This document shows positions 13,963 to 44,583 of a DNA stretch of 64,000 nt, piece by piece. The notes beneath the pieces were generated by a model that worked only from the letters and a program-made list of their open reading frames with translations, made no database searches and was not told the origin of the DNA. The stretch comes from a virus (lineage: Duplodnaviria; Heunggongvirae; Uroviricota; Caudoviricetes), in IMG/VR virus record IMGVR_UViG_3300042401_002002; one strand, given 5' to 3'. Position 1 is the stretch's first letter. The number at the start of each line of letters is the position of its first letter. The translations under genes were made by a program, and so were the position numbers.

Positions 13963-15954
13963 TTATATATAAGTTTCAATTGAAGCATAAACAGGTGTTG
14001 TACCACCAGTAAATGTTAAACCAACTAATTGGTTTGTTTCATCTAAACCTATAAAGTTTTTATTATTAATATCTATATTAGTTATCGTTATATTTGGTCT
14101 TAATGGTGATGCTTTATAACCATCATAGGCTAAACATGTTTTAATATTAGTATATATTTTAGTTGTAAAATCAGGTGTGTTAAAATTAATATTTTGAGTA
14201 CCTGGTGCAAATGTACAATTTGTCAAACCAACATTCCAAGCTAACATTCTAATATTTTTACACCTTTCACCAAAAGAACAATTAGTTATTTGTCCAACAT
14301 TTAAATATGTACTAATATTTTCACAACCTGATTTATATGTACTGTAATCAGAAAATAAATAAGGTGTTGCTCCTGTTGTGTTACTTATACCCAAATTCAA
14401 ACAGTTATCTAAATTATTGTAACTACCGTATAAATTAATATTATTAGAATTTTTAATAATGTTATTTGTATTAGTACCATAAGTTGTTGTATTTCCTGTT
14501 GTACCGATATTTATGTACGTTGAATTAGATACATCATGATAAGAACCACCAATAACTGAATTAACAACATTAGTTAATAATAAGTTATTACTTGTACTAA
14601 AAACTTTACTGTAATAAAATTTATTTATAATATTATTTGTACACCCCCCTTGAAAAATTGAATATCGCACGTCAAAGAAAGTAGAATCAGAATTACTTAA
14701 AATGTTATTAAATTGTGAACGAGATATAACTGTACCGTTACTCCCTCCACCAACTAAAATATTATTACTATAAGTTATTTCAGTATTATTAAACGCTCCA
14801 TCCACAAAAGTACTATTAGCCACGTTAGCTAATGTAATATTACTAAAAGTACCATTAATAATATTAAAATTATTAATATCATTAATTTTAAAATTTGTTA
14901 ATGAACCTTTAAATAAAGTTACATCTGTTACACTATCTGAAAAATATCCATTTTGACAAAAACTACTCCACAAAACAATATTAGGTTTGTGTGTGTAATT
15001 AGTTGATGTATAGTCATAAAAAGGTCTCCAACCGTTATAACTATAAAAACTATCTATTTCAATATTTTTATATTGTGTTGATGAATTATTATTTTCACTA
15101 TATGTTAAACCAAAAGTAAAACCTGATGTAACCCCTGTCATTGTATTACCGCTAATATATGTTGACGCTGAAGTAATAACAGGATATAATAAAATATCAG
15201 CCTTAACAGTTGTACCGTAATTAGTGGAACCTGTTTTTGTTAAATATATATCTGAATCAATTATACAAACTGAATTATCAGTTGTTGGCGGTGTACTAGC
15301 ACCAACGTTTTTAGAGTAAACATACAACTTACCATTGTACCATACATAATCACCGGTTCCACCTGTTACAGCAGGGTTATATTGATTATAATTTACTTTA
15401 TCAACAGGATACCTAAACATAATATGAGTTCTAAAATCATACCCCCTTACCTTAATATTTCTTACTGTATCATGCCTATAATAAATATACCCATTTCTTC
15501 TATAAACTTCAGTTCCATTAGGTAAAAGAAAACCGTTATTACTAAAATCATAATAAATTATATCTTGTGGGTAATCTTTACTGTAAACTTGTGTATGAAA
15601 ACTATAATCATCAACAGCTAATAATAATAACGTTTCTGTTTGTCCTGTATATACAATATTTGTATTATTAATACTATCAATAGTGTTATGATTTAATTCA
15701 TAATACATTCCAGATATTAAATCACCGGCTAATGCTAAACTCAATAAAGAATTGTAAGTATTACCTGTAACAATATTACTTTTATTAATAACCGTACTAA
15801 AGGAACCACCACCTATTTTATTATAGGTTATAACAGTACGTGCTACCGAATCAACAGTACTTACTGATTCAATAACCTCATCAACTAACCCATTATATTT
15901 AATTGCCCAAGCACCAACCTTATCAGCACCCTCAACAACTTTAAAATCACTCAT
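13963..15954 (-). CDS. Tail spike/fibre with parallel beta-helix repeats
   Basis: 663 aa with repeated N/G/T/S-rich ~22-aa segments (NNILVGGGSNGTVISRSQFNNILS...). Confidence 0.6.
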   Translation of the reverse strand: MSDFKVVEGADKVGAWAIKYNGLVDEVIESVSTVDSVARTVITYNKIGGGSFSTVINKSNIVTGNTYNSLLSLALAGDLISGMYYELNHNTIDSINNTNIVYTGQTETLLLLAVDDYSFHTQVYSKDYPQDIIYYDFSNNGFLLPNGTEVYRRNGYIYYRHDTVRNIKVRGYDFRTHIMFRYPVDKVNYNQYNPAVTGGTGDYVWYNGKLYVYSKNVGASTPPTTDNSVCIIDSDIYLTKTGSTNYGTTVKADILLYPVITSASTYISGNTMTGVTSGFTFGLTYSENNNSSTQYKNIEIDSFYSYNGWRPFYDYTSTNYTHKPNIVLWSSFCQNGYFSDSVTDVTLFKGSLTNFKINDINNFNIINGTFSNITLANVANSTFVDGAFNNTEITYSNNILVGGGSNGTVISRSQFNNILSNSDSTFFDVRYSIFQGGCTNNIINKFYYSKVFSTSNNLLLTNVVNSVIGGSYHDVSNSTYINIGTTGNTTTYGTNTNNIIKNSNNINLYGSYNNLDNCLNLGISNTTGATPYLFSDYSTYKSGCENISTYLNVGQITNCSFGERCKNIRMLAWNVGLTNCTFAPGTQNINFNTPDFTTKIYTNIKTCLAYDGYKASPLRPNITITNIDINNKNFIGLDETNQLVGLTFTGGTTPVYASIETYI

Positions 15955-19246: not shown

Positions 19247-22039
19247 ATGGCTAAAAAGTATTTTACTCCAGAACAAGTTAATCATATTATTGATTGTTAC
19301 GAAAATAAAAATTATTCTATTAAAAATATAGCTGTGGAATACAGATGTGACCCTGGTACTATTACTAGGGTCTTAAATGAAAATGACGTAAAAATTAAAG
19401 ATTATAGGATACCATTTACGCCTGAACAAGAAGAGTATATTAAAATACAATATAACAATGGTAAAAGTACAGTCAAATTAGGTGAAGAATTTGGTTGTTC
19501 AGCTAAAGCTATTGGGTCTTTCTTGAAAAGAAATGAAATAGTTGTAACTAAATCAACATTATTGTGTGATGAAGATATATCTAACATTATTTTAGATTAC
19601 ATTGAAAATTCACTTACTTTAGAAGTTATTTCCGCAAAATATAATATTGCTAAAAGAAGACTTTCAGATATTTTACAAGAAAAGGGTATTGAAACAAAAA
19701 ATAAATTATATAAAACATTTTCAGAAGAAGATGTTAAAGAGATTATCAAAATGTACACTATCGGATTTATTAGTTTAAAGAAGATAGGTGAAAAATATAA
19801 TTGCGATAAAAGTGTTATTAGTAATCTTCTAAAGAAAAACAAGATTGAAATATATGATAGAAACCTTAAACACCATTTAATTGACGATGAAACCGTTTGT
19901 AATGAACATATTAACGGTTTATCAATAAATGATTTAAGTAAAAAATATGGTTGTTCTGACACAGTTATTACTAGAATTTTACAAAAAAATAACATTGAAA
20001 CTATTAATCATAGATTTTATAATTTTTCTAAAGAACAAGTTGATGAATTAATTAGGTTATACACAACTGAACTTAAACCAACATCTGAGTTATCTGTTTT
20101 ATTTGACTGTACTGTTGATAGAGTTAATAAGATTTTACATGATAATAATGTATCTTTAATTAAACAAGCAGCAAATAAAATAACTTTCTCTACTGAAGAT
20201 ATTGATAAAATAAAAAGTTTACACAAAACAATGTCTAACAAAGAAATAGGTAGTTTATTTAATTGTAGTCCTGATACAATCAGACGACTTCTAAATAAGG
20301 AAGGTGTTAATACAAGTAAAAATTATCAAACCGAACAAAGTGTCATTGATAATATTGTTATTGATTATTCAATAAATAAACTTAGTACTAGAACATTATC
20401 TGAAAAATATAATTTCTCTCAAACGTATATTAGTAAGGTTTTAAAAGAAAATAATGTTGAAGCTAATTTAAGATATATAATTTCAGTTTCTTCTGATGAA
20501 GAGAAAGAAATTATTAGAAAACATGTTGAAGATAGAAAAACTTTAACTGAGATTAGTAATGAATATGGCATTAATATTAAATTTTTAAGTGAAAATATCT
20601 TTAAAAAGAATAATATTAATATTCAACTTAAAAAACCTGCTCAAGAGAAATTAAATATTGAACAAATATTAACCGAACTAAAAACAGGTAAAGGTATTTC
20701 AACTATCGCTAGAGAGAATAATTGTTCTTTCGGTACTATAAACTCAATAGCTATTAGTAATGGAATTAAAACAACAAATGAATTAACAGATGTTTTTACT
20801 AATGAGTTGATTCTTAAAAAAGAAAATAGAAGATTTGTATTTGATAATTATCAAACTAAATTTGTTATTGAAAAATACACTAATGGTGCAACAATAAAAC
20901 AAATTAGTAATTTCCTTAAAGTTGACTATACTACAATCCACAGGGTACTTGTAAATAACAATATAAAGGTTCAACATAAATTATTAAAAACATTTACTGA
21001 ACAAGTTGAAGAAGATATCTGTTCAGAATACGTTGATAATAACAAAACTATGTTAGAAATTGGCAAACTATACAATGTGTCACAATCAGTTATTAGAAAA
21101 GTTCTAATAAAACACAACGTAGAAATTACCAATAATTATTATTCATCGGTTAACGAAAATAAAATTCGTTATATTCTTGGTTATTTTATTCCAACTATTC
21201 ACAAGAAATCAGATTGTGATAATATTTTGCAAGCTAAGGAAATAGACATTATTGATTATACCAAAAAGATTGGTATAGAATATAACGGAACATATTTTCA
21301 TAGAAGCGAGAATAAATCCGAAACTTATCATATTGATAAAACAAAAGAAGCTTCGTCTGCCGGTTATAAACTGTATCATGTTTTTGATGATGAATATGTA
21401 CATGATTCTGTTAAAATAATAAACCGACTTTTGAAGTTATTTAAAACAGGTTTGTATATTACTGAAGATACTTATGATGAACTAGAAGAATGTTTCTTCA
21501 GCAATACTAGTTACGATGAAATTTACATTGAAGGTTTAGTTAAAACCAAACTACCACTTTCTGAATGTACGATAACTAAAGTTGAACCAACTAAACAATA
21601 TTATCAGTTTTACACTGCGTTTGGTTTATTGAAATCTTACGATGAAACTATTAATAATGTCAATTACAATATTGAACATAAAGAATACGGTTTAATTGGT
21701 TATATTAGTATTAATAAAACAACCAATACTGTTGAAAATTTATTCATTGAAGATGATTATGTAATTACAGGTTTAAACAAAAGAATCTTTGATTTATATT
21801 TAAATGAATTTAAACCAACTGAGTTATTTATTGAAATTGACAGAAGATACGCTTCAGAGCCAGAGAATTTATCTGGTTTATCATTTGAGTTAATTAACGA
21901 AACAGAACCTAGAATTCATTATTTTAAGAATTATTCAAGATATATCGCAACTAATGAAACTAATTTAGAATTGGATTCTGATGTTGAGTGGAACATTATT
22001 CACGATTGTGGGACTTGGAAATATAAATTGATTAAATAA
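19247..22039 (+). CDS. 930-aa protein with about 13 tandem HTH-like modules and a C-terminal putative Vsr/DUF559-like nuclease domain
   Basis: Repeated ~48-aa units (..IA.EY.CS..TI.R.L..N.I..), then IDIIDYTKKIGIEYNGTYFH. Confidence 0.55.
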   Translation: MAKKYFTPEQVNHIIDCYENKNYSIKNIAVEYRCDPGTITRVLNENDVKIKDYRIPFTPEQEEYIKIQYNNGKSTVKLGEEFGCSAKAIGSFLKRNEIVVTKSTLLCDEDISNIILDYIENSLTLEVISAKYNIAKRRLSDILQEKGIETKNKLYKTFSEEDVKEIIKMYTIGFISLKKIGEKYNCDKSVISNLLKKNKIEIYDRNLKHHLIDDETVCNEHINGLSINDLSKKYGCSDTVITRILQKNNIETINHRFYNFSKEQVDELIRLYTTELKPTSELSVLFDCTVDRVNKILHDNNVSLIKQAANKITFSTEDIDKIKSLHKTMSNKEIGSLFNCSPDTIRRLLNKEGVNTSKNYQTEQSVIDNIVIDYSINKLSTRTLSEKYNFSQTYISKVLKENNVEANLRYIISVSSDEEKEIIRKHVEDRKTLTEISNEYGINIKFLSENIFKKNNINIQLKKPAQEKLNIEQILTELKTGKGISTIARENNCSFGTINSIAISNGIKTTNELTDVFTNELILKKENRRFVFDNYQTKFVIEKYTNGATIKQISNFLKVDYTTIHRVLVNNNIKVQHKLLKTFTEQVEEDICSEYVDNNKTMLEIGKLYNVSQSVIRKVLIKHNVEITNNYYSSVNENKIRYILGYFIPTIHKKSDCDNILQAKEIDIIDYTKKIGIEYNGTYFHRSENKSETYHIDKTKEASSAGYKLYHVFDDEYVHDSVKIINRLLKLFKTGLYITEDTYDELEECFFSNTSYDEIYIEGLVKTKLPLSECTITKVEPTKQYYQFYTAFGLLKSYDETINNVNYNIEHKEYGLIGYISINKTTNTVENLFIEDDYVITGLNKRIFDLYLNEFKPTELFIEIDRRYASEPENLSGLSFELINETEPRIHYFKNYSRYIATNETNLELDSDVEWNIIHDCGTWKYKLIK

Positions 22040-35129: not shown

Positions 35130-35132
35130 TAA

Positions 35133-35675
35133 ATGAAGAAAATACAATTCACCGAAGAAGAACTTTTACTATTATTAAACGATGTAGTAAAAGAACAACA
35201 AAATAAAGTAGAAATTTGGACCAACAATCTTTCGTTAAAAGAAGTTGTTGAAAAAGTTGGTTTTAAAATAGTTAAACAATGAAACTAGAAATAGCAAATT
35301 ATAGTGATAGAAGATTTATTACAAGTAAATCGTTTGAAGTAATAAATAAGGAAATCCCTGTTAAAGAATATTGGTTTAACAACTTAAGAATATATGAAAG
35401 ATGAAATTAAATATCGATAACTTATATACAATTTCTTTTGAAGAAAGTAATGCGTATTTCTTTCTTATACAATTAACCCCAGCAAAGAAACATTTACTAA
35501 ACAATCTAAGGATTTATAAAAGATGAAACTAATAGTTGCTTCAAATCCATATATCTATTTTAATTCAACTGATAGTTTCAGAGAATTATTTAATTTTATT
35601 ACTAACGGAGATAAAATTAAGTTAGATAATTGGATGAATAAAAATAAACCTGATTTTATAGTAATGAAAAGATAA
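35133..35675 (+). other. Locus B of the mini-gene family: four overlapping mini-ORFs (35133..35282, 35279..35404, 35401..35526, 35523..35675)
   Basis: ATGA overlaps; C-termini YWFNNLRIYER and LNNLRIYKR; N-termini MKLEI, MKLNI, MKLIV. Confidence 0.55.
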
Positions 35676-35689
35676 TTTTGTTTTATTGC

Positions 35690-35717
35690 AACCTTTTGTT
35701 TAGATTTGCGTTAGAAT
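35690..35717 (+). promoter_or_regulatory. Class-A promoter (aaccttttgttTAGATTTGCGTTagaat)
   Basis: Motif family; TAgaTTTG fits the Bacteroidetes -7 box. Confidence 0.5.
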
Positions 35718-35737
35718 CATTATAAAATAACTAAACT

Positions 35738-36016
35738 ATGAAATCACATATTTTACCATTCCTTGCAGGTTGTTTCTTAATAACAACTATTGCAGCAACA
35801 TCACCAAAGGTTCAAGAAATACTAACCTTCAAACCAGCACAACCTAAGTTAGTTGTTTCTCAGACATTTGAACATGTTTCGTTAAACACAATAAATAACT
35901 TTATTTTATCTAAAGCTAGAGAAGGCTACATACTTAAAAGTAATAGTTTAGGTATAATAACAAGTGCTGGTTACTCAAATGAATATTCAGCAATCGTAAC
36001 ATTAGAAAAATATTAA
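35738..36016 (+). CDS. Secreted small protein
   Basis: Signal-peptide-like N-terminus. Confidence 0.45.
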   Translation: MKSHILPFLAGCFLITTIAATSPKVQEILTFKPAQPKLVVSQTFEHVSLNTINNFILSKAREGYILKSNSLGIITSAGYSNEYSAIVTLEKY

Positions 36017-36020
36017 TATT

Positions 36021-36551
36021 ATGGAATTAAAAATCAACAACAAATATATTTTGCTTGAAAAGAATAATGATTATGTTTTCAAAGCATTAATTAATGATGT
36101 TACTAAAACATCTATTCAAATTACTAACTTAGATAACGGAAGTGGTCCTGTTAGAACATTATTAACAGCGTTTCATGAACAACTTGATGTTATTGAGTTT
36201 ATTGATGATAAACAAATAGAATCTCAAATAACAAATTCTATAAATAAATTAAATAAACTAGATAACATAGTAACTAAAGAACTTGTCTCTTTACCGACTA
36301 AGGTAATAAAAGATAATTTAGAAATAGAATCAGCAATGATGAATGTTTTTCTAGAAAATCAAAAACCTTTAGAACCGGATTTTCAAGATGCACTTAATGA
36401 GTTAACTAAAGAATCCGGAAAGGAAATACCAATTCGTTTTATTTCACCTCAAATTAATGTTCGTGAAATTGATAATATTATTTCTGATGAACCAGATTAC
36501 ATTCAACCAACCAAACCTTTAACAAACAATTGGTGTTTTAAAAGCAAGTAA
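36021..36551 (+). CDS. Hypothetical protein
   Basis: 176-aa ORF. Confidence 0.5.
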   Translation: MELKINNKYILLEKNNDYVFKALINDVTKTSIQITNLDNGSGPVRTLLTAFHEQLDVIEFIDDKQIESQITNSINKLNKLDNIVTKELVSLPTKVIKDNLEIESAMMNVFLENQKPLEPDFQDALNELTKESGKEIPIRFISPQINVREIDNIISDEPDYIQPTKPLTNNWCFKSK

Positions 36552-36611
36552 ATAATCTTTAATTTTATGGAAGTTTTATTTAATTTCTACTATTTAAAAT
36601 AAATAACTACA

Positions 36612-37184
36612 ATGTACTACAAACTATCTGATTACGCAAAAAAATTTAACATTACCTACCGTGCAGCGTGGAATCGCTTCAAAGCTGGTAAAATTAAAGA
36701 TGCTTTTGTTGATGATACAAACCATGTTTGTATCCCTGTTCATAAAATGGACTCAATGTCTAAAAACATGGTAATTTATTCCAGAGTTTCTTCTAATGAA
36801 ATGAAAGAAAACTTAGAACGTCAATCTGAAAGATTGACCAACTACGCTATCTCTAACGGTTATACTATCATTAAAGTTGTTAAAGAAGTAGGCTCTGGTC
36901 TGAACGACCACAGACCTAAACTTATGAAAGTTTTAACAGACAACAACTTTGATTTTATTTTAGTTGAAAATAAAGATAGATTAACCCGTTTCGGGTTTAA
37001 TTATCTTGAAACTCTTTTAAAAACTCAAAACAAACAAATTATCGTTGTTAACAATACAAATGATGATAAAACAGATATCATTAATGATTTAGTTTCTATT
37101 ATCTACTCATTCTCTGCCCGTATCTACGGGTTAAGAAGAGCTAAAAACAAACAAAAAGAAATACTTAATATTATAAATAATTAA
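36612..37184 (+). CDS. tnpA: IS607-type TnpA: MerR-like HTH followed by a serine-recombinase catalytic domain
   Basis: N-terminal HTH (YKLSDYAKKFNITYRAAWNRF) then VIYSRVSSNEMKENLERQ with the catalytic Ser. Confidence 0.8.
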   Translation: MYYKLSDYAKKFNITYRAAWNRFKAGKIKDAFVDDTNHVCIPVHKMDSMSKNMVIYSRVSSNEMKENLERQSERLTNYAISNGYTIIKVVKEVGSGLNDHRPKLMKVLTDNNFDFILVENKDRLTRFGFNYLETLLKTQNKQIIVVNNTNDDKTDIINDLVSIIYSFSARIYGLRRAKNKQKEILNIINN

Positions 37185-37191
37185 TTCTTTA

Positions 37192-38496
37192 ATGTACGTT
37201 ACTGAAAAACATATAATCAACAAATTACATCGCTTCTACGAAGAGATTGATTCTCTGTGTTTTAAAAGTAAAAACTTGTATAATAAAGCTCTTTATACTG
37301 TAAGACAAGAATTTATTAATACTTCTAAATTAAAAGAACAAGGCATGGTTGACCATGCTAATTATTTTAATTATTATGATATTAATAGACAATTCATTGA
37401 CAGTAAAGATGTTGATTATTATAATTTACCTGTTAAAATTAGTAATCAAACCCTTATGTTGGTTGATAAGAACTTTAAATCTTTCTTTGCTTTATGTAAA
37501 AAGTACAAAAGCAACAAAAATAATTTAACAGGTAGACCAAAGTTACCTAACTACTTGCACAAAACCAAGGGTCGTTACGTAGTAACGTATGAACTTGGTG
37601 CAATATCTAGCAAGTTTTTAAAACAAAATGTAATTAAACTAAGTGGGACTAACATTGAAGTACCCGTCATTAACAAACACAACGGTGTTTTAAAAATGGT
37701 ACGATTAGTACCCATGTCAAATAAAAAATATAAAATTGAAGTTGTTTATGATGTAGAAGAAAAGAACATGAATTTAAATAAAGACAATATAATAAGTATT
37801 GATTACGGAGTTAATAATTTAATGACTATAACATCAAATGTAGAAGGCTTTCAGCCTCGTATAATTAAAGGTGGTCATGTTAAATCAATAAATCAGTTTT
37901 ATAATAAAGTCAAAAGTGAGTTGCAGTCGCAACTACCAAACCATTCTAGTTTGAAAGACAAAGAAGGTAAACCTCAAATCTTACAGAACTCTAATAAGAT
38001 TAACACTTTAACACATAAGCGTAACTGTAAGATTGAACATGAGTTTCATGAGTACACAAACAAAATATTGCAACTGTGTTTACAGTATAATATTGGTACA
38101 ATAGTTATAGGTTGTAACAAGGGTTGGAAACAGGGAACAAATATGTCAAAGAAAGTTAACCAAAACTTTGTTTCGATACCTTACACAAAACTGACACATC
38201 AGTTAAAGTACAAAAGTGAGTTGATAGGTAATGTTGTTGTGGAACAAGAGGAAAGTTACACATCAAAGGCAAGCTTTGTTGATGATGACTTGATACCCAC
38301 CTACAATAAAAACCAAGCTAAGAGTTACAGTTTCAGTGGAAACCGTAAGCTAAGAGGTTTATACGTTACAAAATTAGGTATCAAAGTTAACTCAGATGTA
38401 AACGGTAGTTATAATATACTGAGAAAGTATATGTTAAGTATCGGTAGGATATTAGACAGCAGTCGCTGTAAATTAGTACCGATAATAATAGATTAA
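37192..38496 (+). CDS. tnpB: TnpB (RuvC-like RNA-guided nuclease family); the zinc-finger Cys pairs appear to be absent
   Basis: RuvC-I SIDYGVNNL, RuvC-II EESYTSKASFVDD and RuvC-III DVNGSYNILRKY are present, but there is no CxxC..CxxC between II and III. Confidence 0.8.
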   Translation: MYVTEKHIINKLHRFYEEIDSLCFKSKNLYNKALYTVRQEFINTSKLKEQGMVDHANYFNYYDINRQFIDSKDVDYYNLPVKISNQTLMLVDKNFKSFFALCKKYKSNKNNLTGRPKLPNYLHKTKGRYVVTYELGAISSKFLKQNVIKLSGTNIEVPVINKHNGVLKMVRLVPMSNKKYKIEVVYDVEEKNMNLNKDNIISIDYGVNNLMTITSNVEGFQPRIIKGGHVKSINQFYNKVKSELQSQLPNHSSLKDKEGKPQILQNSNKINTLTHKRNCKIEHEFHEYTNKILQLCLQYNIGTIVIGCNKGWKQGTNMSKKVNQNFVSIPYTKLTHQLKYKSELIGNVVVEQEESYTSKASFVDDDLIPTYNKNQAKSYSFSGNRKLRGLYVTKLGIKVNSDVNGSYNILRKYMLSIGRILDSSRCKLVPIIID

Positions 38497-38619
38497 ACGC
38501 AAGGGCGGATTGTTCCAAACGGGACATGAAACAGATAGAGGGTTAGCAGTTAACCCAGTGTGAGTTCAAAGTCCACGAAAAGAGAGTAATGGTATTATAT
38601 ACCATGAAATTTTGAACTG
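38495..38619 (+). ncRNA. Putative TnpB omega/reRNA scaffold derived from the IS right end
   Basis: 125-bp segment starting at the tnpB stop; repeated inverted at 42134..42258 with about 92% identity, and homology ends sharply at ...gaaattttgaactg. Confidence 0.45.
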
Positions 38620-38777
38620 TAGTAATAATAGTTGTAATACATTCATGTTATTCGTTTATTGATGAAAAGATAAACGGAAAAACTATAGAATCAAAAATGA
38701 TAGTTAAACCGGATTATAGGTTAGAAACAAACGGTAAAAATATTGATACAATTTATATTTACAAATTTGAATAGTTT

Positions 38778-39380
38778 ATGAAAGAATTTAAAAATATCCA
38801 AGAAAAATATACATCAATGTATTCTGTACCACAAAACATTAATTACAAAATTATATGTTTTGAATACTTAATCAAATTATATATTGATTGGTACAATGAT
38901 GTTAATAGTTCAAATATCGATTATACACAACATTTTAATAAACTAGCACTTAATAAGTTATTATTCTTTACCTCAGCTGTAGGTACAAATAGAAATAATG
39001 ATAACAACGGTTTATTAGATATATTTGATAATTTTTATGCAGCACCATTTGGACATCTGGAGGATGATGTTAATAGTAACTTACGGTTAATTAAATGTAT
39101 TAAGTTTGAATACAATAGTATAAGAAAATTTAACCAACCCAATACATTATATTTTGATAAGATTTCACCAGAAATAAAACAAAGGTTAACAGATGCTGTT
39201 CAATTATTAAGAAAACAAAATGAAACATTAGTATTATATAAACCTTACGAGTTATATGAACTTTCACATGAATATTATTTCTGGAAGTCAACATATAAAT
39301 TTGCTCAATCAATTGGTATGTCTTATTTAGCTATCTCAACAAGTTTAATTAAAACAGAAGAAAAGTTTTTTAGTAAATAA
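38778..39380 (+). CDS. Hypothetical protein
   Basis: 200-aa ORF. Confidence 0.5.
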   Translation: MKEFKNIQEKYTSMYSVPQNINYKIICFEYLIKLYIDWYNDVNSSNIDYTQHFNKLALNKLLFFTSAVGTNRNNDNNGLLDIFDNFYAAPFGHLEDDVNSNLRLIKCIKFEYNSIRKFNQPNTLYFDKISPEIKQRLTDAVQLLRKQNETLVLYKPYELYELSHEYYFWKSTYKFAQSIGMSYLAISTSLIKTEEKFFSK

Positions 39381-39383
39381 AAG

Positions 39384-39512
39384 ATGAAACTTAAGATAAT
39401 AATTACAGGTTTTTATAATGCTAAATCTAAATTTCAACTAACCAAATTTGTAGGTTATTTTGGTATTGGAAACACATGGTCAAATAATTTAAGAATTTAC
39501 TCAAGATATTAG
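39384..39512 (+). CDS. Solo mini-gene family member (locus C)
   Basis: MKLKIIITG...NTWSNNLRIYSRY. Confidence 0.45.
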   Translation: MKLKIIITGFYNAKSKFQLTKFVGYFGIGNTWSNNLRIYSRY

Positions 39513-39521
39513 GTTTATTAA

Positions 39522-39550
39522 AACCTTTTATTTAATTTTACGTTATAAAT
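39522..39550 (+). promoter_or_regulatory. Class-A promoter (aaccttttatTTAATTTTACGTTataaat)
   Basis: Motif family. Confidence 0.5.
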
Positions 39551-39558
39551 AAAAATAT

Positions 39559-39795
39559 ATGGAAGGACAAACATTAAAGCAATGGGCAGAAGGTAATCTA
39601 AATAAAAATTGTATTGGAGAATACGAATTTAAACCTTCAGATATTTTACAAAATGAATTATCTAAAATAAATAATACAGATATTATTGTAAATCCAAATG
39701 ATTCATATATCACTAATAGACAATTCGGTAAACTTAGTCTAGTAAGTCGTGAATTAGAAATAGCTATTAAATTACTTAAAGAGAATAAATTATGA
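39559..39795 (+). CDS. Hypothetical protein
   Basis: 78-aa ORF. Confidence 0.45.
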   Translation: MEGQTLKQWAEGNLNKNCIGEYEFKPSDILQNELSKINNTDIIVNPNDSYITNRQFGKLSLVSRELEIAIKLLKENKL

Positions 39796-39986
39796 AAAAC
39801 ATAACATTTGTAGATTCAGATAAATTAAAGGAATCTCAAGAAACTATTGGTGGAATTTTAACTGGTATCGAATATAGAATTAAAAACCCTGATACAGGTA
39901 GAATAACCGAACAAGAGTTATTTAACTTATGTTTAGAATTAAGGGAACAACAAAAAGAAATGATTTTAGGGAATATTAAAATATAA
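39792..39986 (+). CDS. Hypothetical protein
   Basis: 64-aa ORF with an ATGA overlap upstream. Confidence 0.4.
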   Translation: MKNITFVDSDKLKESQETIGGILTGIEYRIKNPDTGRITEQELFNLCLELREQQKEMILGNIKI

Positions 39987-40120
39987 TCATGAACAATTTA
40001 GAAATAATATTACAAGAATTCGTGCAGTGGTGCAGCGATAATAGTGAAGATGCATTTGATATCTTCGATAATACTGATAAAATGATTGAACGATTCCTAG
40101 AAGAAAGAGATAACTAAACT

Positions 40121-40576
40121 ATGAAAAATATGCAAGAAGAATTAATGGACCTTTTCTTTAAATTAAAAGAATTGAACCCAAACATTAAATTAACAGGTAG
40201 TTTAGCCTTAAACTTACAAAATGTTAAAACCAGAACGGAACCAAACGACTTAGATGTTTATTTACCACTTGGTGAAGAACTAAACATGTTAGAAGGATTT
40301 GAAGAAACTGAACAAGAAGATTATCCTGAAGAAGACTATAATTTGTTTCAGTATTCTAACAACAAAATAAAAATAGATGTATTTCAACCAACTAACAAAT
40401 TGGAATACGGTATCAGTAAAATCATATCTTACAAAGATGTAAAAATTAATGTTATAAAAACACCTGTTATTCTAAGACATAAATTTAATCACGCATTCTC
40501 TATTAACAGCACAACAAATGTTTGTTTCAAACAAACGCAAGACCTAGGTTATATCTTTACGAATTTATGGACTTAA
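40121..40576 (+). CDS. Minimal nucleotidyltransferase-fold (Pol-beta superfamily, MNT-like) protein
   Basis: LTGSLALNLQNVKTRTEPNDLDVYL matches hG[GS]x9-13D[LI]D. Confidence 0.5.
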   Translation: MKNMQEELMDLFFKLKELNPNIKLTGSLALNLQNVKTRTEPNDLDVYLPLGEELNMLEGFEETEQEDYPEEDYNLFQYSNNKIKIDVFQPTNKLEYGISKIISYKDVKINVIKTPVILRHKFNHAFSINSTTNVCFKQTQDLGYIFTNLWT

Positions 40577-40899
40577 TAGACAAAATTAAACTAGAAAAAA
40601 GTTTCAAAATCACAATTGATAATGAAACTTATAAATGTATCATTAAAACTGGAACCATTTATTATTTTGTTGATATCTCAATAATAAAACAATGTAACTT
40701 GTTTGGTTTTAAATTTACTTATTCAAAATTTATGGGATATGTTTGTAGTGATATGGAATTCCCAATACCTTTAACTAATACTGACCAAGACTGGATAAAC
40801 ATTAATAAAGCAATAGAAATAGTCAAAAAAGGTTTAAGCAAATTTGTAAGTAAAAAATATAAACACTTAGAACATATTGTGGTTAAAGACTCGTTATAA
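40567..40899 (+). CDS. Hypothetical protein (start taken at the ATG overlapping the upstream stop; track ORF 40522)
   Basis: MDLIDKIK... ORF. Confidence 0.4.
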   Translation: MDLIDKIKLEKSFKITIDNETYKCIIKTGTIYYFVDISIIKQCNLFGFKFTYSKFMGYVCSDMEFPIPLTNTDQDWININKAIEIVKKGLSKFVSKKYKHLEHIVVKDSL

Positions 40900-40901
40900 A
40901 G

Positions 40902-42102
40902 ATGAAATTAAATATAAACAACGTAAGTTATTTAGAGTTTAATATAACAAATGGTATTGATGTTGTATCAGGTAGTTATAAAGGTGTTTTTAATACAAAT
41001 TATTGGTTAAACAATTTAATAATTTATGAAAGATGAAACTTACAATCAGTTCTTTTAGTAAACAGAAAATAATAAATTCATATATTTATCTTTCTTTACG
41101 AGGATATAGTGAAAAAATAGGACCACATTGGTATAATGAAATTTTAATTTACAAAAGATGAAATTAGAAATATTCAAAGGTCCTGGTCTAACTGGTGTTA
41201 GTCAATTTAAAAATACGTTTATTTATGATTTAATAACAGAAGGAATTAAAATTGATACATCAATTTGGATTAATGATTTAATAATTTCCATAAGATGAAA
41301 TTAATCATAGATAACAGAGTATTATATCGTCATGGTAAAATTACAGATTCATTCGCTCATGATATTATTACAGGGATTAACGCTGATAAAATAAATACTT
41401 TAGGTTGGTTAAACGAAATAACAATATTCACAAGATGAAATTAAAAATTGACATCCAAACCCGTGAAATTAATTCATTTAATTATAGTAATTTATATGTG
41501 AGTTATTTAAAATATCCGTATCATAAAATAAACTTAAATTGGTTAAATGAAATGACAATATTCAGAAAATGAAACTCATATTATATTATAAAGAATCTGA
41601 TTACAGTTTTAAAGATTCACCACATTTTCAAGCCTTAATTGATTGTAATACAATAACAAGTAATAAAGGTTGGGTCAATTACATTATAACATTTAAAAGA
41701 TGAAACTCACAATATACAATAGAAGTTACGTTGATTTTAATAGAACAGGTTATTATAAAATAATAACAACTGATTATGTAAAAATAGACCACTATGATTA
41801 TTGTAACTATATTTTAATAATGAAGAGATGAAACTAAAAACATTATTTTATCCAGACACCTGGGTTTTTACACAATCTGAGAAATACAGGTTATGTAATT
41901 CAGAACTGGAATATAAAATTAAACGACTAGATGTTTGGACCAATAACATACATATATTTGTAAGATGAAACTTACGGTAGAAACAGATTATGGAAACTTT
42001 GTACCAGGACGACCTGATTATGATTTACTAACAGGTTCATTTGAAAATGAAAAAATATCAATAGAATATTGGTGCAACTTGTTGGTTATTTATACGAGAT
42101 AA
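40902..42102 (+). other. Locus D of the mini-gene family: tandem array of 9 complete mini-ORFs (starts 40902, 41033, 41158, 41295, 41435, 41569, 41700, 41828, 41965), with a 10th truncated at 42107..42151
   Basis: Units of 129-144 nt, eight joined by ATGA overlaps. Conserved N-terminus MKL.I and C-terminus W.N.[IL].I[YF].R with a variable middle. Confidence 0.6.
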
Positions 42103-42133
42103 AAAGATGAAATTAAAAATACACGATAGAGAA

Positions 42134-42258
42134 CAGTTCAAAATTTCATAGTATTTTATACCATTACTCTCTTTTCGTGGACTTTGACCTCACACTGGGT
42201 TAACTGCTAACCCTCTATCTGTTTCATGTTCCCTTTGGAACAATCCACCCTTGCGTTT
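42134..42258 (-). mobile_element. Inverted solo copy of the IS607 right-end / omega-RNA-scaffold sequence, inserted into mini-gene unit 10
   Basis: The reverse complement matches 38495..38619 apart from about 7 substitutions and a 2-3-bp indel near the AT-rich distal end. The mini-gene reading frame breaks exactly at its edge. Confidence 0.6.
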
Positions 42259-42679
42259 GTTTTATGTCACTTAACTTATTTGATTCAACAAGCTACGCTT
42301 GTTGTCTTGTTATATTGTGACGATTCTAAAACACTCTTGCGTTTTACGTTTACGAGAACAAAACCTTCAGGTTTTGATTTGTAAACAACCTAATACCACT
42401 ATGTCAAATAATCAACAACCTTTTGTTGTTGAGCAAACAAAGGTACTAATTTAAAATGATAGAACAAAATAAATTAGTACTTTATTTTAAATAGTATATT
42501 TTAAATAAAACTTCTATAAAATTAAAGATTTATTGGTCGCTTTGACTACACCTCTACTTTAAAGATAGTGGTGCATGTTTCTTAATGTCCAAAGGCGGTA
42601 CTTATTATTTGTCGGTTATTAATGAAAATAATACGTTCATTAAATATAATTGGTTAAATAATATAACAATATATGACAA

Positions 42680-43711
42680 ATGAAATTAAAAATACATAAA
42701 ATAATTTATTATTCATTTACTGAATATCGTATTAGCACTTCACTAATAAAAGGTTTTACTAAATCAAAAGAAACCAAAGATTGGTTAAATTACATAACAG
42801 TTTATAATAGAAGAGAAAATGAAACTTAACATAGATAATAGAATTGAAATATTTAAAAAAACATTACTTTATGATGATATTTTTTTAAACCCAAAAACAA
42901 TTAAAATAGATTTATCAGGTTGGTTTGAAATAACTATATTTATAAGATGAAATTAAAAATTGATTACAAAATAATGGTACACCACAGATTTACTGTAGAA
43001 ATATTTTGTAAATCTAACTGGTTTATTCCTGAATACTGGATTAATAAAATTATTGTTTTTGAAAGATGAAACTTAACACACTACACAAAGAGTATAATTT
43101 TAATGATACAAATATGTATGTATTTCTGGTAACAAGCAAAATAAGAACCGTTACTGCATTGTCATTAAAAACAATTTTTAATAAGTTAATTACTTACGAA
43201 AGATGAAATTAGAAATAACTAAATCAGTACATAACTTCAAGAATACATTTACTCTTGAAATATTGTTAAATAAATTCACAGCACAAATAACTCATTCAGC
43301 CTGGTGCAACACAATAGATGTTTATATAAGGTAAATTTATGAAATTAAAAATTCAAAACACAGATTGGTTTCTTGAATTCACAGGTTATCATCCACTTAT
43401 AACAGGTGGATATACAAAACCACAACCACCAATTTCAAAAAACTGGACCAACAAATTAACATTATTTATACGATGAAACTTATTACAGAAAATAAACAAT
43501 ATAATTTTAATAATACCAGAACAAGTTCATTTCTGATATCCGGTAAAATAAGAACTGTTACAGCATTGTTAATTAAAACAAATATTAATAAGTTAATTAC
43601 TTACGAAAGATGAAACTTAAAATTTGGTACCACAATCACAACTTTAAAAATACAAACGTATATATTTCATTAACCATCGGTTATAGTTGTAAAATAAATC
43701 ATGACAACTGA
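42680..43711 (+). other. Locus E of the mini-gene family: 8 mini-ORFs (42680..42829, 42819..42950, 42947..43069, 43066..43206, 43203..43334, 43339..43476, 43473..43613, 43610..43711)
   Basis: Same MKL.I / W.N.I.I(Y/F).R architecture. Units 15 and 18 are close paralogs (..SKIRTVTAL..KT..NKLITYER). Confidence 0.6.
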
Positions 43712-43789
43712 CTTAATACATTATTTGTTTTTAAAAAAATAATAAATTCGTAACAATAAAAGTATTAAGTTTAAAAACCGTATTTTTCT

Positions 43790-44320
43790 GGAAAAAAAAT
43801 TTTTGAGGACCCGGAATAAATATGCGTTTTGGAAATTGCTGGTGGTATTTTGGTTACAAACGATATTAGTTATTTTTGTTTATTAAAATACATGCCAGCA
43901 TTACGATAAAAACAAATTAGTTGTTTTGTTTTATTGGTTTAGTTTATATCGGGAATATAAAACAATATTGGTTTAGAATTCAAAAAATTCTGGGAAAAAT
44001 TTTTTTGAAGATGGAAGAAGATTATAATAAGAACAGAATTAGTTGGTTTGTTTTATTGGGAATGTACCGGTATTAAAAAAAAAGAATAAATTAGAATATA
44101 AACAATATTTGTTATTTTTGTTTATTAGAATAATAATTATATTTGGAATACCTGTCAGTATTAAGAAAAGAATAAGATTGGTTGGTTTTATTGGAAATAT
44201 AAAAGTTATTCGGTTAGTTAGTTTAGAATTCAAAAATTTCTGGAAAAATTTTTTTGAAGATGAAGGAACAAGGTTGGTTTTGGTTGTTTCCCTGGGAAAT
44301 AAAAAACTAGATATTTTGTA
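43790..44320. repeat. Non-coding repeat region: degenerate direct repeats of about 130-250 bp carrying TTGGTT(T/G)GTTTTATTGG(G/A)AAT iterons and aattcaaaaaWttctggGaaaaatttttttgaagatg hairpins
   Basis: Three or four repeat copies read directly. The track ORFs 44039..44395(-) and 44043..44321(+) lie on the repeats and are considered spurious. Confidence 0.5.
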
Positions 44321-44391
44321 GAAGTGTAGCCCCAGCGACATAAACCCCTGTGTATCAGGGAGTTCCCTACGGGTACGGAGAAGTAGGTATA

Positions 44392-44583
44392 TCAAACCAA
44401 CCCACTATTATTCGCTCTATACCTATAATTGCAATTGTTATACAAGATTACATCATTAAGACTTATATAATCATTATTAATAAGTCTATTATAAAAGTCT
44501 CTATCTATTTGATTCATTTCAGTACCGTAGTTATTAACTATACACTTTGCTTTATATTTAAGGTTATTGAAGATGTTATTCAT
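44392..44583 (-). CDS. Hypothetical small protein
   Basis: 63-aa ORF; competes with the overlapping plus-strand ORF. Confidence 0.3.
   Translation of the reverse strand: MNNIFNNLKYKAKCIVNNYGTEMNQIDRDFYNRLINNDYISLNDVILYNNCNYRYRANNSGLV

What the first reader, a model, noticed from the sequence alone, without database searches (positions are those of the whole stretch)
42134..42600. Inverted solo copy of the IS right-end / omega-RNA scaffold inserted into a mini-gene, forming 125-bp inverted repeats around a 3.5-kb segment
42134..42258 is the reverse complement of 38495..38619 with a handful of mismatches (A/G differences plus a small indel near the AT-rich distal end). It interrupts mini-gene unit 10 after codon 9 (MKLKIHDRE|), and the unit's C-terminal part (..KYNWLNNITIYDK) resumes around 42600. 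About 340 bp of unrelated, slightly GC-richer sequence (42259..42600) lies between. Homology in both copies stops at the same ...gaaattttgaactg boundary, so this is an element end rather than a random duplication. It could be a miniature derivative of the IS, a second omega-RNA locus with its own guide (ttctctatcgtgtattttta on the minus strand), or a substrate for recombination that would invert 38620..42133, which carries the NTase-fold gene and array D.
Basis: seen in the sequence. Interest (0 to 1): 0.7.

Follow-up and report, generated by a model that had tools for sequence, protein, structure and literature searches.

The report
Gene-less miniature IS607 transposon in phage
A 415-bp gene-less element carrying both ends of a neighbouring IS607-type transposon, including its intact guide-RNA fold, has inserted into one small gene of a jumbo-phage genome; it is a known kind of hitch-hiking element, and I found no earlier description of one for this transposon family in a phage.

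Summary
The inverted repeat is real: 38495-38620 vs 42258-42133, 126 nt, 94.4% identity, no gaps. It is not a solo right end. The IS left end is also present (36532-36609 vs 42552-42475, 82%), so 42133-42550 (minus strand) is a complete gene-less miniature element. It consists of left end, a 216-nt unrelated hairpin-rich middle, and right end.

Related phage contigs L018 and L019 carry the uninterrupted 53-aa mini-gene. They are identical to the window over 245 nt spanning the insertion point. This defines a clean 415-bp insertion with TGT at both junctions and no other duplication. Assemblies from five other samples contain the element, so it is not an artefact.

The parent (36534-38620) is an IS607-family element with a serine-recombinase TnpA and a TnpB with an intact D204/E354/D402 triad. 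The right end encodes a structured RNA that covaries across nine relatives, and the miniature copy keeps every stem.

Best reading: a non-autonomous IS607 derivative, moved in trans by TnpA. It could supply a second guide to TnpB against the empty allele. No inversion of the 3.5-kb segment was seen.

Ordinary in kind, with modest novelty.

The parts
42133..42550 (-). Miniature gene-less IS607-type element. It spans 418 nt including the TGT (ACA on +) present at both junctions; the inserted unit is 415 nt.
   Evidence: Both IS ends are present. The empty site in L018/L019 joins window 42135 to 42548 with ACA shared. There is no ORF with TnpA/TnpB similarity and all frames contain stops. It is 100% identical in L014/L017, L020 and L021-L023.
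42133..42258 (-). Right end of the miniature element, carrying the guide-RNA (omega/reRNA-like) scaffold.
   Evidence: It is 94.4% identical to 38495-38620. Covariance models R1 and R2 find exactly two copies in the window. All stems are kept, and the 7 substitutions are either unpaired or keep a pair.
42259..42474 (-). Middle of 216 nt, unrelated to the IS, hairpin-rich, with terminator-like hairpins facing both directions.
   Evidence: No match in the window, the held loci, deposited phages or IMG/VR. Fold z-scores are -3.3 and -4.6. Three terminator-like sites were found where 0.3 are expected. No Rfam family matches.
42475..42550 (-). Left end of the miniature element.
   Evidence: 82% identical to the IS left end 36534-36609. 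The homology stops 3 nt before the position of the tnpA ATG.
42113..42132 (-). Predicted guide-encoding flank, immediately 3' of the right end: TCTCTATCGTGTATTTTTAA.
   Evidence: Inferred by position, by analogy with IS607 TnpB systems. It is unique in the window at up to 3 mismatches. A perfect match preceded by GGTGT is present in the empty alleles L018/L019.
42107..42135 (+). N-terminal fragment of the interrupted mini-gene (MKLKIHDRE, plus the first two bases of the His codon).
   Evidence: Translation and comparison with the intact 53-aa gene in L018/L019.
42551..42683 (+). C-terminal fragment of the interrupted mini-gene (third base of the His codon, then LYFKDSG...NITIYDK and the stop codon).
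36534..38620 (+). Full-length IS607-family element. It comprises the left end, tnpA 36612-37184, tnpB 37192-38496 and the right end 38495-38620, with TGT at both junctions.
   Evidence: TnpA matches NF033518 (169 bits, cut-off 110) and TnpB matches NF040570 (144 bits, cut-off 100), with Pfam support. No terminal inverted repeats. The D204/E354/D402 triad is invariant in relatives.
38621..42132 (.). The 3,512-nt segment lying between the two head-to-head right ends. It contains a 200-aa gene, small genes and part of the mini-gene array.
   Evidence: Only a weak PHROG hit (phrog_1281, unknown function, E 6e-4) and a sub-threshold Pfam hit, both for the 200-aa protein; nothing for the other genes. 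The same orientation is seen in all spanning contigs.

Best explanation
Window 42133-42550 (minus strand) is a non-autonomous, gene-less miniature derivative of an IS607-family insertion sequence. It is a sister lineage of the full-length IS that lies 3.5 kb upstream, not a copy of it.

It keeps exactly the two non-coding ends of such an IS. The 76-nt left end stops just before where tnpA would start. The 126-nt right end starts at the tnpB stop codon. A 216-nt hairpin-rich filler sits in place of the genes.

It entered (or can leave) the mini-gene by serine-recombinase transposition: exchange at a short core inside the TGT shared by element ends and target, no target duplication, and a target of the form NG|TGT. 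Because it has no genes, a TnpA supplied in trans must have moved it, most simply the TnpA of the resident IS or a closer relative.

Its right end still encodes the complete structured guide-RNA scaffold of this lineage. If transcribed on the minus strand, it would give TnpB a second guide (TCTCTATCGTG...). That guide matches the uninterrupted allele found in related phages, so it could favour retention of the element or its spread into co-infecting genomes.

Shown: anatomy, boundaries, presence/absence polymorphism, protein families, conserved RNA fold.
Inferred: mobilisation in trans, transcription, TnpB loading and cleavage, and what the TAM is.
For: Both ends.
- The right end matches over 126 nt at 94.4% and the left end over 78 nt at 82%.
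- The homology blocks coincide with the non-coding ends of the IS.

Exact empty site.
- L018/L019 carry the intact 53-aa gene.
- They are 100% identical to the window over 174 nt on the left and 71 nt on the right of the insertion point, inside an otherwise diverged array.
- TGT is the only sequence shared by the two junctions.

Independent assemblies contain the element: L014/L017 and L020 span it; L015 and L021-L023 end or begin inside it (five samples).

The parent is an IS607-family element by NCBI curated models and has no terminal inverted repeats.

The TnpB triad is intact and invariant in relatives.

Junction motif in the lineage.
- Six of six left-end junctions read NG|TGT.
- All right ends of the sub-lineage read ..ACTGT.

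RNA fold.
- 97.1% of cells are paired, against 29-52% when partners are slid.
- Five of six pairs of hairpin 1 change on both sides.
- The covariation score is 0.126 vs 0.064 +/- 0.013, with 0/500 shuffles reaching it.
- Hairpin 4 occurs in four sequence versions, all paired.
- The miniature copy keeps all stems.

The empty allele has GGTGT plus a perfect 20-nt guide match.

At 38565 and 38603 the miniature copy shares the state of the outgroup L012, so it is not a copy of the neighbouring IS.

Published background.
- A gene-less mini-IS607 (IStron) is excised in trans by TnpA-Ser, and TnpB with its guide RNA cleaves the donor joint (PMC10690162).
- Gene-less PATEs carrying omega RNAs that TnpB must act on in trans are known in IS200/IS605 (PMC10055086).
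Against: - Only one copy of this element is known. Three IMG/VR pattern scans found none, and nothing was found in deposited phages or the held loci. Typical MITEs are multicopy.
- The left end is only 82% identical to the resident IS, so recognition by this particular TnpA is uncertain.
- On the element strand a terminator-like hairpin (42432-42412) lies between the left-end promoter-like site and the right end. This could prevent guide-RNA synthesis.
- There are no expression data.
- The core is TG/TGT rather than the canonical GG, so rules taken from characterised IS607 members may not transfer exactly.
- The RNA matches no Rfam family.
Confidence: 0.8

Rival explanations
1. It is a dead fossil. 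A second full-length IS copy once sat in this mini-gene and lost its genes in place through deletions and drift. The remnant never moved as a small element and has no present function.
For: The middle has no detectable homology to anything. The left end has diverged to 82%. Only a single copy is known. A short stretch on the + strand (42255-42296) weakly resembles a TnpB N-terminal motif.
Against: The retained blocks are exactly the two non-coding ends, not random deletion end-points. The flanks are 100% identical to an empty allele over 245 nt while the surrounding array is strongly diverged, so the presence/absence difference is recent relative to array divergence. All RNA stems are intact and none of 7 substitutions breaks a pair. 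The TnpB-like motif is 14-16 aa long, lies on the wrong strand and is of borderline significance.
Confidence: 0.1
2. Its main role is structural. The two 126-bp inverted right ends act as recombination sites that flip the 3.5-kb segment 38621-42132, an invertible cassette carrying the 200-aa gene and part of the mini-gene array.
For: The inverted repeats contain perfect runs of 41 and 30 nt. A second probable gene-less element faces the other IS right end in L001 in the same head-to-head geometry. The IS right end is a junction between two genome forms.
Against: All contigs crossing the repeat with unique sequence on both sides show one orientation (L014/L017, L020). No inverted junction was retrieved by look-ups of genes on either side. 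IS607 TnpA is known to pair a left end with a right end, not two right ends (PMC6188088, from the abstract listed).
Confidence: 0.05
3. It is a domesticated regulatory insert. The bidirectional terminator-like hairpins and antisense orientation make it a transcription stop or insulator, or an antisense RNA source, within the mini-gene array. The IS-end homology would be merely its origin.
For: Three terminator-like sites occur in 900 nt where 0.3 are expected, one on each strand inside the middle. The element is antisense to all neighbouring genes.
Against: It destroys the gene it sits in. Related phages lack it at an otherwise identical site. Nothing ties the hairpins to regulation, and consensus scans are not evidence of function.
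Confidence: 0.04
4. It is an assembly artefact: a mis-join at a repeated IS end.
For: Several short-read contigs break inside the repeat (L015, L021-L023).
Against: L014/L017 (JGI 3300042484) and L020 (JGI 3300042486) span the whole element at 100% identity. Contigs from SRR27420059, SRR27420658 and ERZ27272034 contain its unique middle. The clean empty site argues for a real insertion.
Confidence: 0.01

Closest known systems
IS607-family insertion sequences (serine-recombinase TnpA plus TnpB; e.g. IS607, IS1535, ISXfa1, the IS607-type IStron of Clostridium botulinum)
   Same: The parent element passes the NCBI equivalog model for the IS607 transposase and the TnpB model. It has no terminal inverted repeats and no target duplication beyond the shared core. 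A guide-RNA-like structure lies at the right end, running to the element boundary. The target motif abuts the left end.
   Different: The ends and targets share TG/TGT instead of the canonical GG (vs 46, 89). TnpB has the alternative RuvC-II glutamate and no zinc-finger cysteines. The host replicon is a jumbo phage. The feature under study carries no genes at all.
PATE/MITE-type gene-less derivatives of IS200/IS605 that carry omega RNAs (Meers et al., PMC10055086)
   Same: A small element made of the two ends of a TnpB-carrying IS, with no protein gene and the guide-RNA scaffold retained. It depends on TnpA and TnpB supplied in trans.
   Different: Those move as single-stranded DNA using an HUH transposase and have hairpin ends, and they are usually multicopy in bacterial chromosomes. 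This one belongs to the double-strand, serine-recombinase IS607 family, is known as a single copy, and sits in a phage.
Experimental mini-IS of the C. botulinum IS607-type IStron (Zedaveinyte et al., PMC10690162)
   Same: It has a left end plus a right end without tnpA or tnpB. In that system it is excised and integrated by TnpA-Ser in trans, and TnpB with its guide RNA cleaves the regenerated donor joint.
   Different: That construct is man-made, contains a group I intron and uses a GG core with a TGGG TAM. Here the element is natural, has no intron, and the shared junction motif is TGT.
RAGATH-18-derived guide RNAs of IS607 TnpBs (PMC11061315)
   Same: A structured RNA immediately 3' of an IS607 tnpB that would guide the nuclease.
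   Different: No Rfam family, RAGATH-18 included, matches either copy even at E up to 10. This is a different RNA scaffold.
Free-standing homing endonuclease genes of T-even phages, and 'non-restorative transposon homing' as framed in PMC13565253
   Same: A selfish insert whose nuclease would cut the insert-free allele of a co-infecting relative. The empty and occupied alleles differ only by the insert.
   Different: Here the nuclease would be encoded elsewhere (the neighbouring IS), and only the guide would be carried by the insert. None of this has been demonstrated.

Membership tests
IS607 family (parent element 36534-38620) | Serine-recombinase transposase with an N-terminal DNA-binding domain | tested here: met
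   NF033518 'IS607 family transposase' equivalog, 169 bits against a cut-off of 110, covering residues 7-180. Pfam Resolvase, E 4e-18.
IS607 family (parent element 36534-38620) | Accessory tnpB downstream of tnpA on the same strand | tested here: met
   NF040570 guided_TnpB, 144 bits against a cut-off of 100. Pfam OrfB_IS605 and Cas12f1-like_TNB. D204/E354/D402 are invariant in six relatives.
IS607 family (parent element 36534-38620) | No terminal inverted repeats | tested here: met
   First 50 nt against the reverse complement of the last 50 nt: best local score 8, shuffle mean 7.9, 167/300 shuffles as good.
IS607 family (parent and miniature element) | No target-site duplication; exchange at a short core shared by the ends and the target | tested here: met
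   The empty site in L018/L019 contains TGT once, and the occupied site has it at both junctions with nothing else duplicated.
IS607 family (parent and miniature element) | Ends and targets share a GG core dinucleotide ('most members terminate in GG') | tested here: not met
   Right ends terminate ...AACTGT in the window IS, the miniature element, L001/L016, L012, L029-L033, L007, L009 and L002. L008 ends ...AACTG. GG precedes TGT on the left flank in four of six cases but is not at the right end. I treat this as a lineage variant of the core, not as grounds for exclusion, because the protein models are met.
Non-autonomous miniature IS derivative (MITE/PATE-like) | Carries both ends of an autonomous element | tested here: met
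   Left end 82% over 78 nt, right end 94.4% over 126 nt.
Non-autonomous miniature IS derivative (MITE/PATE-like) | No transposase or other protein gene; small size | tested here: met
   418 nt. Stops in all three element-strand frames. No significant tblastn match to TnpA or TnpB. No gene is called there in the public contigs.
Non-autonomous miniature IS derivative (MITE/PATE-like) | Evidence of mobility (occupied and empty sites) | tested here: met
   L018/L019 are empty while the window, L014/L017 and L020 are occupied. The flanks are identical over 245 nt.
Non-autonomous miniature IS derivative (MITE/PATE-like) | Multiple copies per genome or population at different sites | tested here: not met
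   Only this site is known. A second, much more diverged gene-less candidate exists in L001, but it is not a copy of this element.
Non-autonomous miniature IS derivative (MITE/PATE-like) | Mobilised in trans by the transposase of the autonomous relative | not testable with these tools
   Needs an excision/integration assay. Shown for an engineered mini-IS607 in PMC10690162.
TnpB guide RNA (omega RNA / reRNA) | Structured RNA at the 3' end of tnpB that runs to the right-end boundary, with conserved secondary structure | tested here: met
   Nine right ends (TnpB 70-100% identical). 97.1% of cells are paired against 29-52% when slid. Five pairs have double changes. 0/500 shuffles reach the covariation score. 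Hairpins 1, 2 and 4 were checked sequence by sequence.
TnpB guide RNA (omega RNA / reRNA) | Is transcribed, binds TnpB and directs cleavage next to a TAM | not testable with these tools
   Needs RNA-seq or RIP-seq and interference assays. Only the target logic could be checked: the empty allele has GGTGT plus a perfect 20-nt match.
TnpB guide RNA (omega RNA / reRNA) | Belongs to a curated RNA family (RAGATH-18, IS605-orfB RNAs) | tested here: not met
   No credible Rfam match at E up to 10 on either copy.
IStron (group I intron fused to an IS605/IS607 element) | Group I intron at the left end, oriented so that it can splice out of the host gene | tested here: not met
   No intron family in the Rfam scans. 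The element is antisense to the interrupted gene.

The most novel reading that the evidence does not exclude
The miniature element is a guide-only hitch-hiker. It carries no nuclease but supplies a second guide RNA to the TnpB of the neighbouring IS, and that guide targets the insert-free allele of co-infecting phages. Together with the IS it would form a two-guide cassette whose guides read into the two borders of the 3.5-kb segment between them. Double cutting of a naive relative would then drive co-conversion of the whole IS-cargo-mini block.

Two observations would fit such a recurrent architecture. The same head-to-head geometry recurs in the alternative right flank (L001). A 245-nt island of perfect identity surrounds the insertion point.
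Probability: 0.15. Interest if true: 0.7.

Novelty: new member of a known kind. Interest (0 to 1): 0.4.

Why it matters
If the guide-RNA reading holds, this is a natural case in which a TnpB guide has separated from its nuclease within the IS607 family, and on a phage. Phages undergo frequent co-infection and recombination, so RNA-guided homing could have immediate population effects there.

The finding also supplies a matched occupied/empty allele pair with an exact target. This makes TAM and cleavage rules for a non-GG IS607 lineage directly testable.

In practical terms, it corrects the annotation of this region. The mini-gene is disrupted by a transposon, and the 3.5-kb segment is simply the DNA between two insertions, not a demonstrated invertible cassette.

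Tried and rejected
- Rfam scans of 35500-44500, 42100-42600 and 38250-38660 at E up to 1-10 found nothing credible: no RAGATH-18, no group I intron, no IS605-orfB RNA.
- Deposited phages (INPHARED): blastn of the element gave no match. The IS gave only distant tnpA/tnpB hits.
- IMG/VR pattern scans:
  - The middle (two patterns), the miniature element's left end, the shared left end and the predicted empty site all gave 0 hits.
  - The empty-site pattern had assumed a 418-nt excision and was therefore slightly wrong.
- GTDB genome scans gave no right-end core and no close TnpB.
- The metagenome hit L013 was a chance 23-nt match inside a cyanobacterial surface-protein gene and was discarded.
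- My first boundary estimate (418 nt removed, 52-aa gene) was superseded by the real empty site (415 nt, 53 aa).
- Coding remnants in the middle: only a 14-16-aa resemblance to a TnpB N-terminal motif on the opposite strand. I judged it probably chance.
- Model R1, built from four close copies, did not reach distant relatives.
- The long-range ACAG/CUGU pairing predicted from close copies was not recovered in the nine-sequence consensus structure. I do not rely on it.
- phmmer of TnpB against PDB sequences gave no hit.
- Empty site for the full-length IS: not found. Every left-junction contig carries the IS. The only IS-free homologue (P0002/L028, 48% identity) is too diverged and has an extra C-terminal domain.
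- Which of the two right flanks of the IS is ancestral could not be resolved.
Full report
**1. The observation**

The claimed inverted repeat exists. The repeat finder reports arms 38488-38620 and 42133-42265 (133 nt, 92%). A local alignment gives an ungapped core of 126 nt, 38495-38620 against 42258-42133, with 119 identities. blastn within the window gives E 3e-52. The seven differences are all substitutions, so the 'small indel' does not exist.

36532-36609 matches 42552-42475 (78 nt, 82%, E 6e-17). This second block is the left end of the upstream element. These are the only copies of either end in the 64-kb window.

**2. The upstream element**

ORFs 36612-37184 (190 aa) and 37192-38496 (434 aa) pass NCBI's curated models. 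The first matches 'IS607 family transposase' (169 bits, cut-off 110). The second matches 'RNA-guided endonuclease TnpB' (144 bits, cut-off 100). Pfam gives Resolvase, OrfB_IS605 and Cas12f1-like_TNB. The element has no terminal inverted repeats.

In an alignment with five relatives at 40-48% identity, D204, E354 and D402 are invariant. The position of the canonical RuvC-II glutamate is a conserved glycine (G307, VIG-x-NKGWKQ). E354 lies six residues before the position of the first zinc-finger cysteine. This is the 'alternative glutamate' arrangement described by Yoon et al. (PMC10711439). The zinc-finger cysteines are absent in this lineage. The nuclease triad is therefore intact.

The window itself is phage. 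It encodes a T4-type large terminase, thymidylate synthase, a NUDIX protein and homing-endonuclease-like proteins, and it has 25% GC. The contigs that carry it reach 265-309 kb.

**3. Anatomy of the finding**

On the minus strand, 42550 down to 42133 reads as follows:
- Left end: 42550-42475.
- Unrelated middle: 42474-42259, 216 nt.
- Right end: 42258-42133.

The two homology blocks are exactly the non-coding ends of the IS. The left block stops 3 nt before the tnpA ATG, and the right block starts at the tnpB stop codon.

The middle has no similarity to TnpA or TnpB coding sequence, to the rest of the window, to any fetched locus, to deposited phages or to IMG/VR. It is GC-richer than the window (30% against 25%) and hairpin-rich, with fold z-scores of -3.3 and -4.6 on the two strands. 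It holds terminator-like hairpins facing both ways, and three such sites occur in the 900-nt scan where 0.3 are expected. No Rfam family matches.

**4. Proof that it is an insertion, and its exact limits**

Exact-protein look-ups of the flanking mini-genes returned two contigs from other samples (L018, L019). In these the 45-aa gene is followed directly by an intact 53-aa gene, MKLKIHDREHLYFKDSG....
- L018 766-939 equals window 41962-42135 at 100%.
- L018 937-1082 equals window 42548-42692. The first 71 nt are identical and the rest is diverged.
- The three bases ACA (TGT on the element strand) occur once in the empty site and at both junctions in the window.

The inserted unit is therefore 415 nt, with no other duplication. 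This is the signature expected of a serine-recombinase IS607 element.

My earlier estimate from reading-frame restoration alone (418 nt) was off by one codon.

Outside the 245-nt island of identity the arrays of the two phages are strongly diverged. The presence/absence difference is therefore recent relative to array divergence.

**5. Not an artefact**

L014/L017 (JGI 3300042484) and L020 (JGI 3300042486) are 100% identical to the window and span the whole element. L015, L021, L022 and L023 (Logan and ENA assemblies of three further samples) end or begin inside it and include its unique middle. L015 is exactly the segment bounded by the two inverted right ends, which is where a short-read assembler would be expected to break.

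**6. The junction motif**

Canonical IS607 members exchange at GG, end in GG and have G-rich TAMs. This lineage differs.
- Right ends end ...AACTGT in the window IS, the miniature element, L001/L016, L011/L012, L029-L033, L007, L009 and L002. L008 ends ...AACTG followed by A.
- All six left junctions of the sub-lineage read NG|TGT: GG in the window IS, the miniature element, L032 and L033, and TG in L029 and L031.

The core is thus TG (or GT) within TGT.

By analogy with the C. botulinum element, the TAM here may be (G/T)GTGT, with self-cleavage avoided because the right end reads ACTGT. In that element the TAM TGGG differs from the scaffold end TCGG. This is inference only.

**7. The right end as a guide-RNA scaffold**

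I fetched five closer TnpB homologues (70-82% identity). With them, nine right ends could be compared. On the cleanly aligned part:
- 97.1% of cells form standard pairs, against 29-52% when partners are slid by 1-3 columns.
- Five of the six pairs of hairpin 1 change on both sides.
- The covariation score is 0.126 against 0.064 +/- 0.013 in shuffles, with 0/500 reaching it.

A sequence-by-sequence check shows the following:
- Hairpin 1 occurs as TGTTCC/GGGACA, TGACTT/AAGTCA, TAACCT/AGGTTA and TGG/CCA.
- Hairpin 4 occurs as ATGGTAT/ATACCAT, ATAG/CTAT, TATA/TATA and TATGG/CTATA. All versions are paired.
- Hairpin 2 (GGGTTA-GCAGT-TAACCC) is nearly invariant in these nine. It covaries in the distant relatives L009, L002 and L003.

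In most members the RNA begins at about the stop codon, so the 126 nt kept by the miniature element cover the whole conserved structure. The miniature copy keeps every stem. Its seven substitutions are four unpaired positions and three that keep a pair as G-U or A-U. This last point is weak support, because the structure was derived partly from these same sequences.

The RNA is not a curated Rfam family.

Whether it is made from the miniature element is unknown. A promoter-like site lies in the left end, and a terminator-like hairpin lies downstream of it.

**8. Guide and target**

The 20 nt 3' of the miniature element's right end (TCTCTATCGTGTATTTTTAA, 42132-42113) match nothing else in the window at up to three mismatches. 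The empty alleles L018/L019 carry GGTGT followed by a perfect match. So if TnpB were loaded with this RNA, its natural target would be the insert-free allele of related phages. This is the logic of transposon homing described for TnpB.

**9. Relationship to the neighbouring IS**

At two of the seven differing sites (38565, 38603) the miniature copy shares the state of the outgroup L012, and at one of them that of the second IS copy. Together with the 82% left end, this shows it is a sister lineage and not a recent deletion derivative of the resident IS.

**10. Inversion hypothesis**

The repeats contain perfect runs of 41 and 30 nt, so homologous inversion is conceivable. However, every contig with unique sequence on both sides of the miniature element's right end has the window orientation. 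No look-up returned an inverted junction. This cannot exclude a minor isomer.

**11. Wider context and open points**

(a) A second IS copy.
- A second copy of the IS (99.9% identical, two SNPs near the right-end tip) joins a different right flank: L001, L016, and a 265,309-bp contig that has the window's left flank.
- Both junction types co-occur in samples 3300042484 and 3300042486.
- Contigs L014 and L001 begin exactly 127 nt before the first SNP, which is an assembly-graph branch point.
- 308,574 - 265,309 = 43,265, the exact length of the L014 contig.
- I could not fetch the far end of that contig, so whether the two forms differ by recombination between right-end copies is unresolved.
- No contig independent of the window crosses from tnpB through the right end into 38621 onwards.

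(b) A second probable gene-less element.
- Model R2 finds a weaker right-end-like RNA in L001 (11999-12111, 33.7 bits, E 3e-4 over 205 kb).
- It has left-end-like motifs about 170 nt upstream, TGT at both inferred termini and a palindromic hairpin in between. It lies in a 363-nt intergenic gap.
- It faces that IS copy's right end 2.4 kb away, the same head-to-head geometry as in the window.
- Pairwise similarity to the IS ends is only marginal, so I rate it probable, not certain.

(c) The closest TnpB homologues are tnpB-only elements.

**12. Comparison with what is known, and verdict**

The parent is a member of the IS607 family by its proteins and by its transposition signature, with a non-canonical core.

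The finding is a non-autonomous, gene-less derivative. The nearest described analogues are the omega-RNA-bearing PATEs of IS200/IS605 and the engineered mini-IS607 that TnpA-Ser excises and integrates in trans. Three literature searches found no description of a natural gene-less IS607 derivative, or of one in a phage. Absence from that library is not proof of absence.

I class it as a new member of a known kind, of moderate interest. It is well supported as a mobile miniature element (about 0.8-0.9). It is plausible but untested as a working second guide (about 0.3-0.4). It is unsupported as an inversion switch.

Noticed in passing
L001 11831-12111 (+ strand of the locus; the IS right end there ends at 14555 on the - strand): A probable second, more diverged gene-less IS607-type element. 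It has a right-end-like RNA (33.7 bits), left-end-like motifs, TGT at both inferred termini and a 12-bp palindrome in the middle. It faces the IS right end 2,443 nt away, the same head-to-head geometry as in the window.
   Followed up: partly
window 38476-38620 and beyond; L001, L014, L016; 265,309-bp contig of JGI 3300059473: The IS has one known left flank but two right flanks, distinguished by two SNPs at 38603 and 38614, and both occur in the same samples. 308,574 - 265,309 = 43,265, the exact length of the contig that starts at 38476. This suggests two genome forms differing by one unit bounded by right-end sequence. The IS-to-38621 join is supported beyond k-mer length only by the window itself.
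   Followed up: partly
window 37192-38496: TnpB has the alternative RuvC-II glutamate (E354) with glycine at the canonical position, a DYG RuvC-I motif and no zinc-finger cysteines. More than 7,000 homologues score E <= 1e-40, many on contigs of 100-340 kb.
   Followed up: partly
window 36532-36536, 38616-38620, 42133-42137, 42548-42552; L007-L009, L029-L033: This IS607 lineage uses TG/TGT as the shared junction motif instead of the canonical GG. Left flanks read (G/T)G|TGT in six of six cases.
   Followed up: yes
window about 35130-35680 and 40900-43620: Long tandem arrays of ~40-50-aa mini-genes with overlapping ATGA stop/start codons, a conserved MKL..I start and a W.N...I..R end. The units tested have no Pfam or PHROG match. 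Between related phages the arrays are highly diverged, except for a 245-nt island of perfect identity around the insertion point.
   Followed up: partly
window 36021-36551; L028 1351-2226: The 176-aa gene upstream runs into the IS left end and takes its last residues and stop codon from it. A 48%-identical homologue (P0002) continues for 154 more residues with a weak NUMOD4 match. That extension is not encoded anywhere in the window or in the alternative flank.
   Followed up: partly
window 42255-42296 (+): This stretch translates to VCFMSLNLFDSTSYAC, which resembles the conserved TnpB N-terminal motif LCFxSKNLYNxxLY. tblastn E is 0.003-0.15 in a 418-nt database. It is on the strand opposite to the element and is probably chance.
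   Followed up: partly
L029-L033: The closest TnpB homologues (70-82% identity) are tnpB-only elements. L030 keeps an 84-aa remnant of tnpA.
   Followed up: partly
L001 about 14330-14530 (- strand), just beyond the IS right end: About eight copies of the motif (A)ACAATGTT, in both orientations, lie within ~200 nt of an intergenic region. This could be an operator or origin-like repeat cluster.
   Followed up: no
window 19247-22039: A 930-aa protein with many helix-turn-helix modules whose C-terminal part resembles phage homing endonucleases (Hef-like, GIY-YIG). It is another selfish-element candidate in the same window.
   Followed up: no
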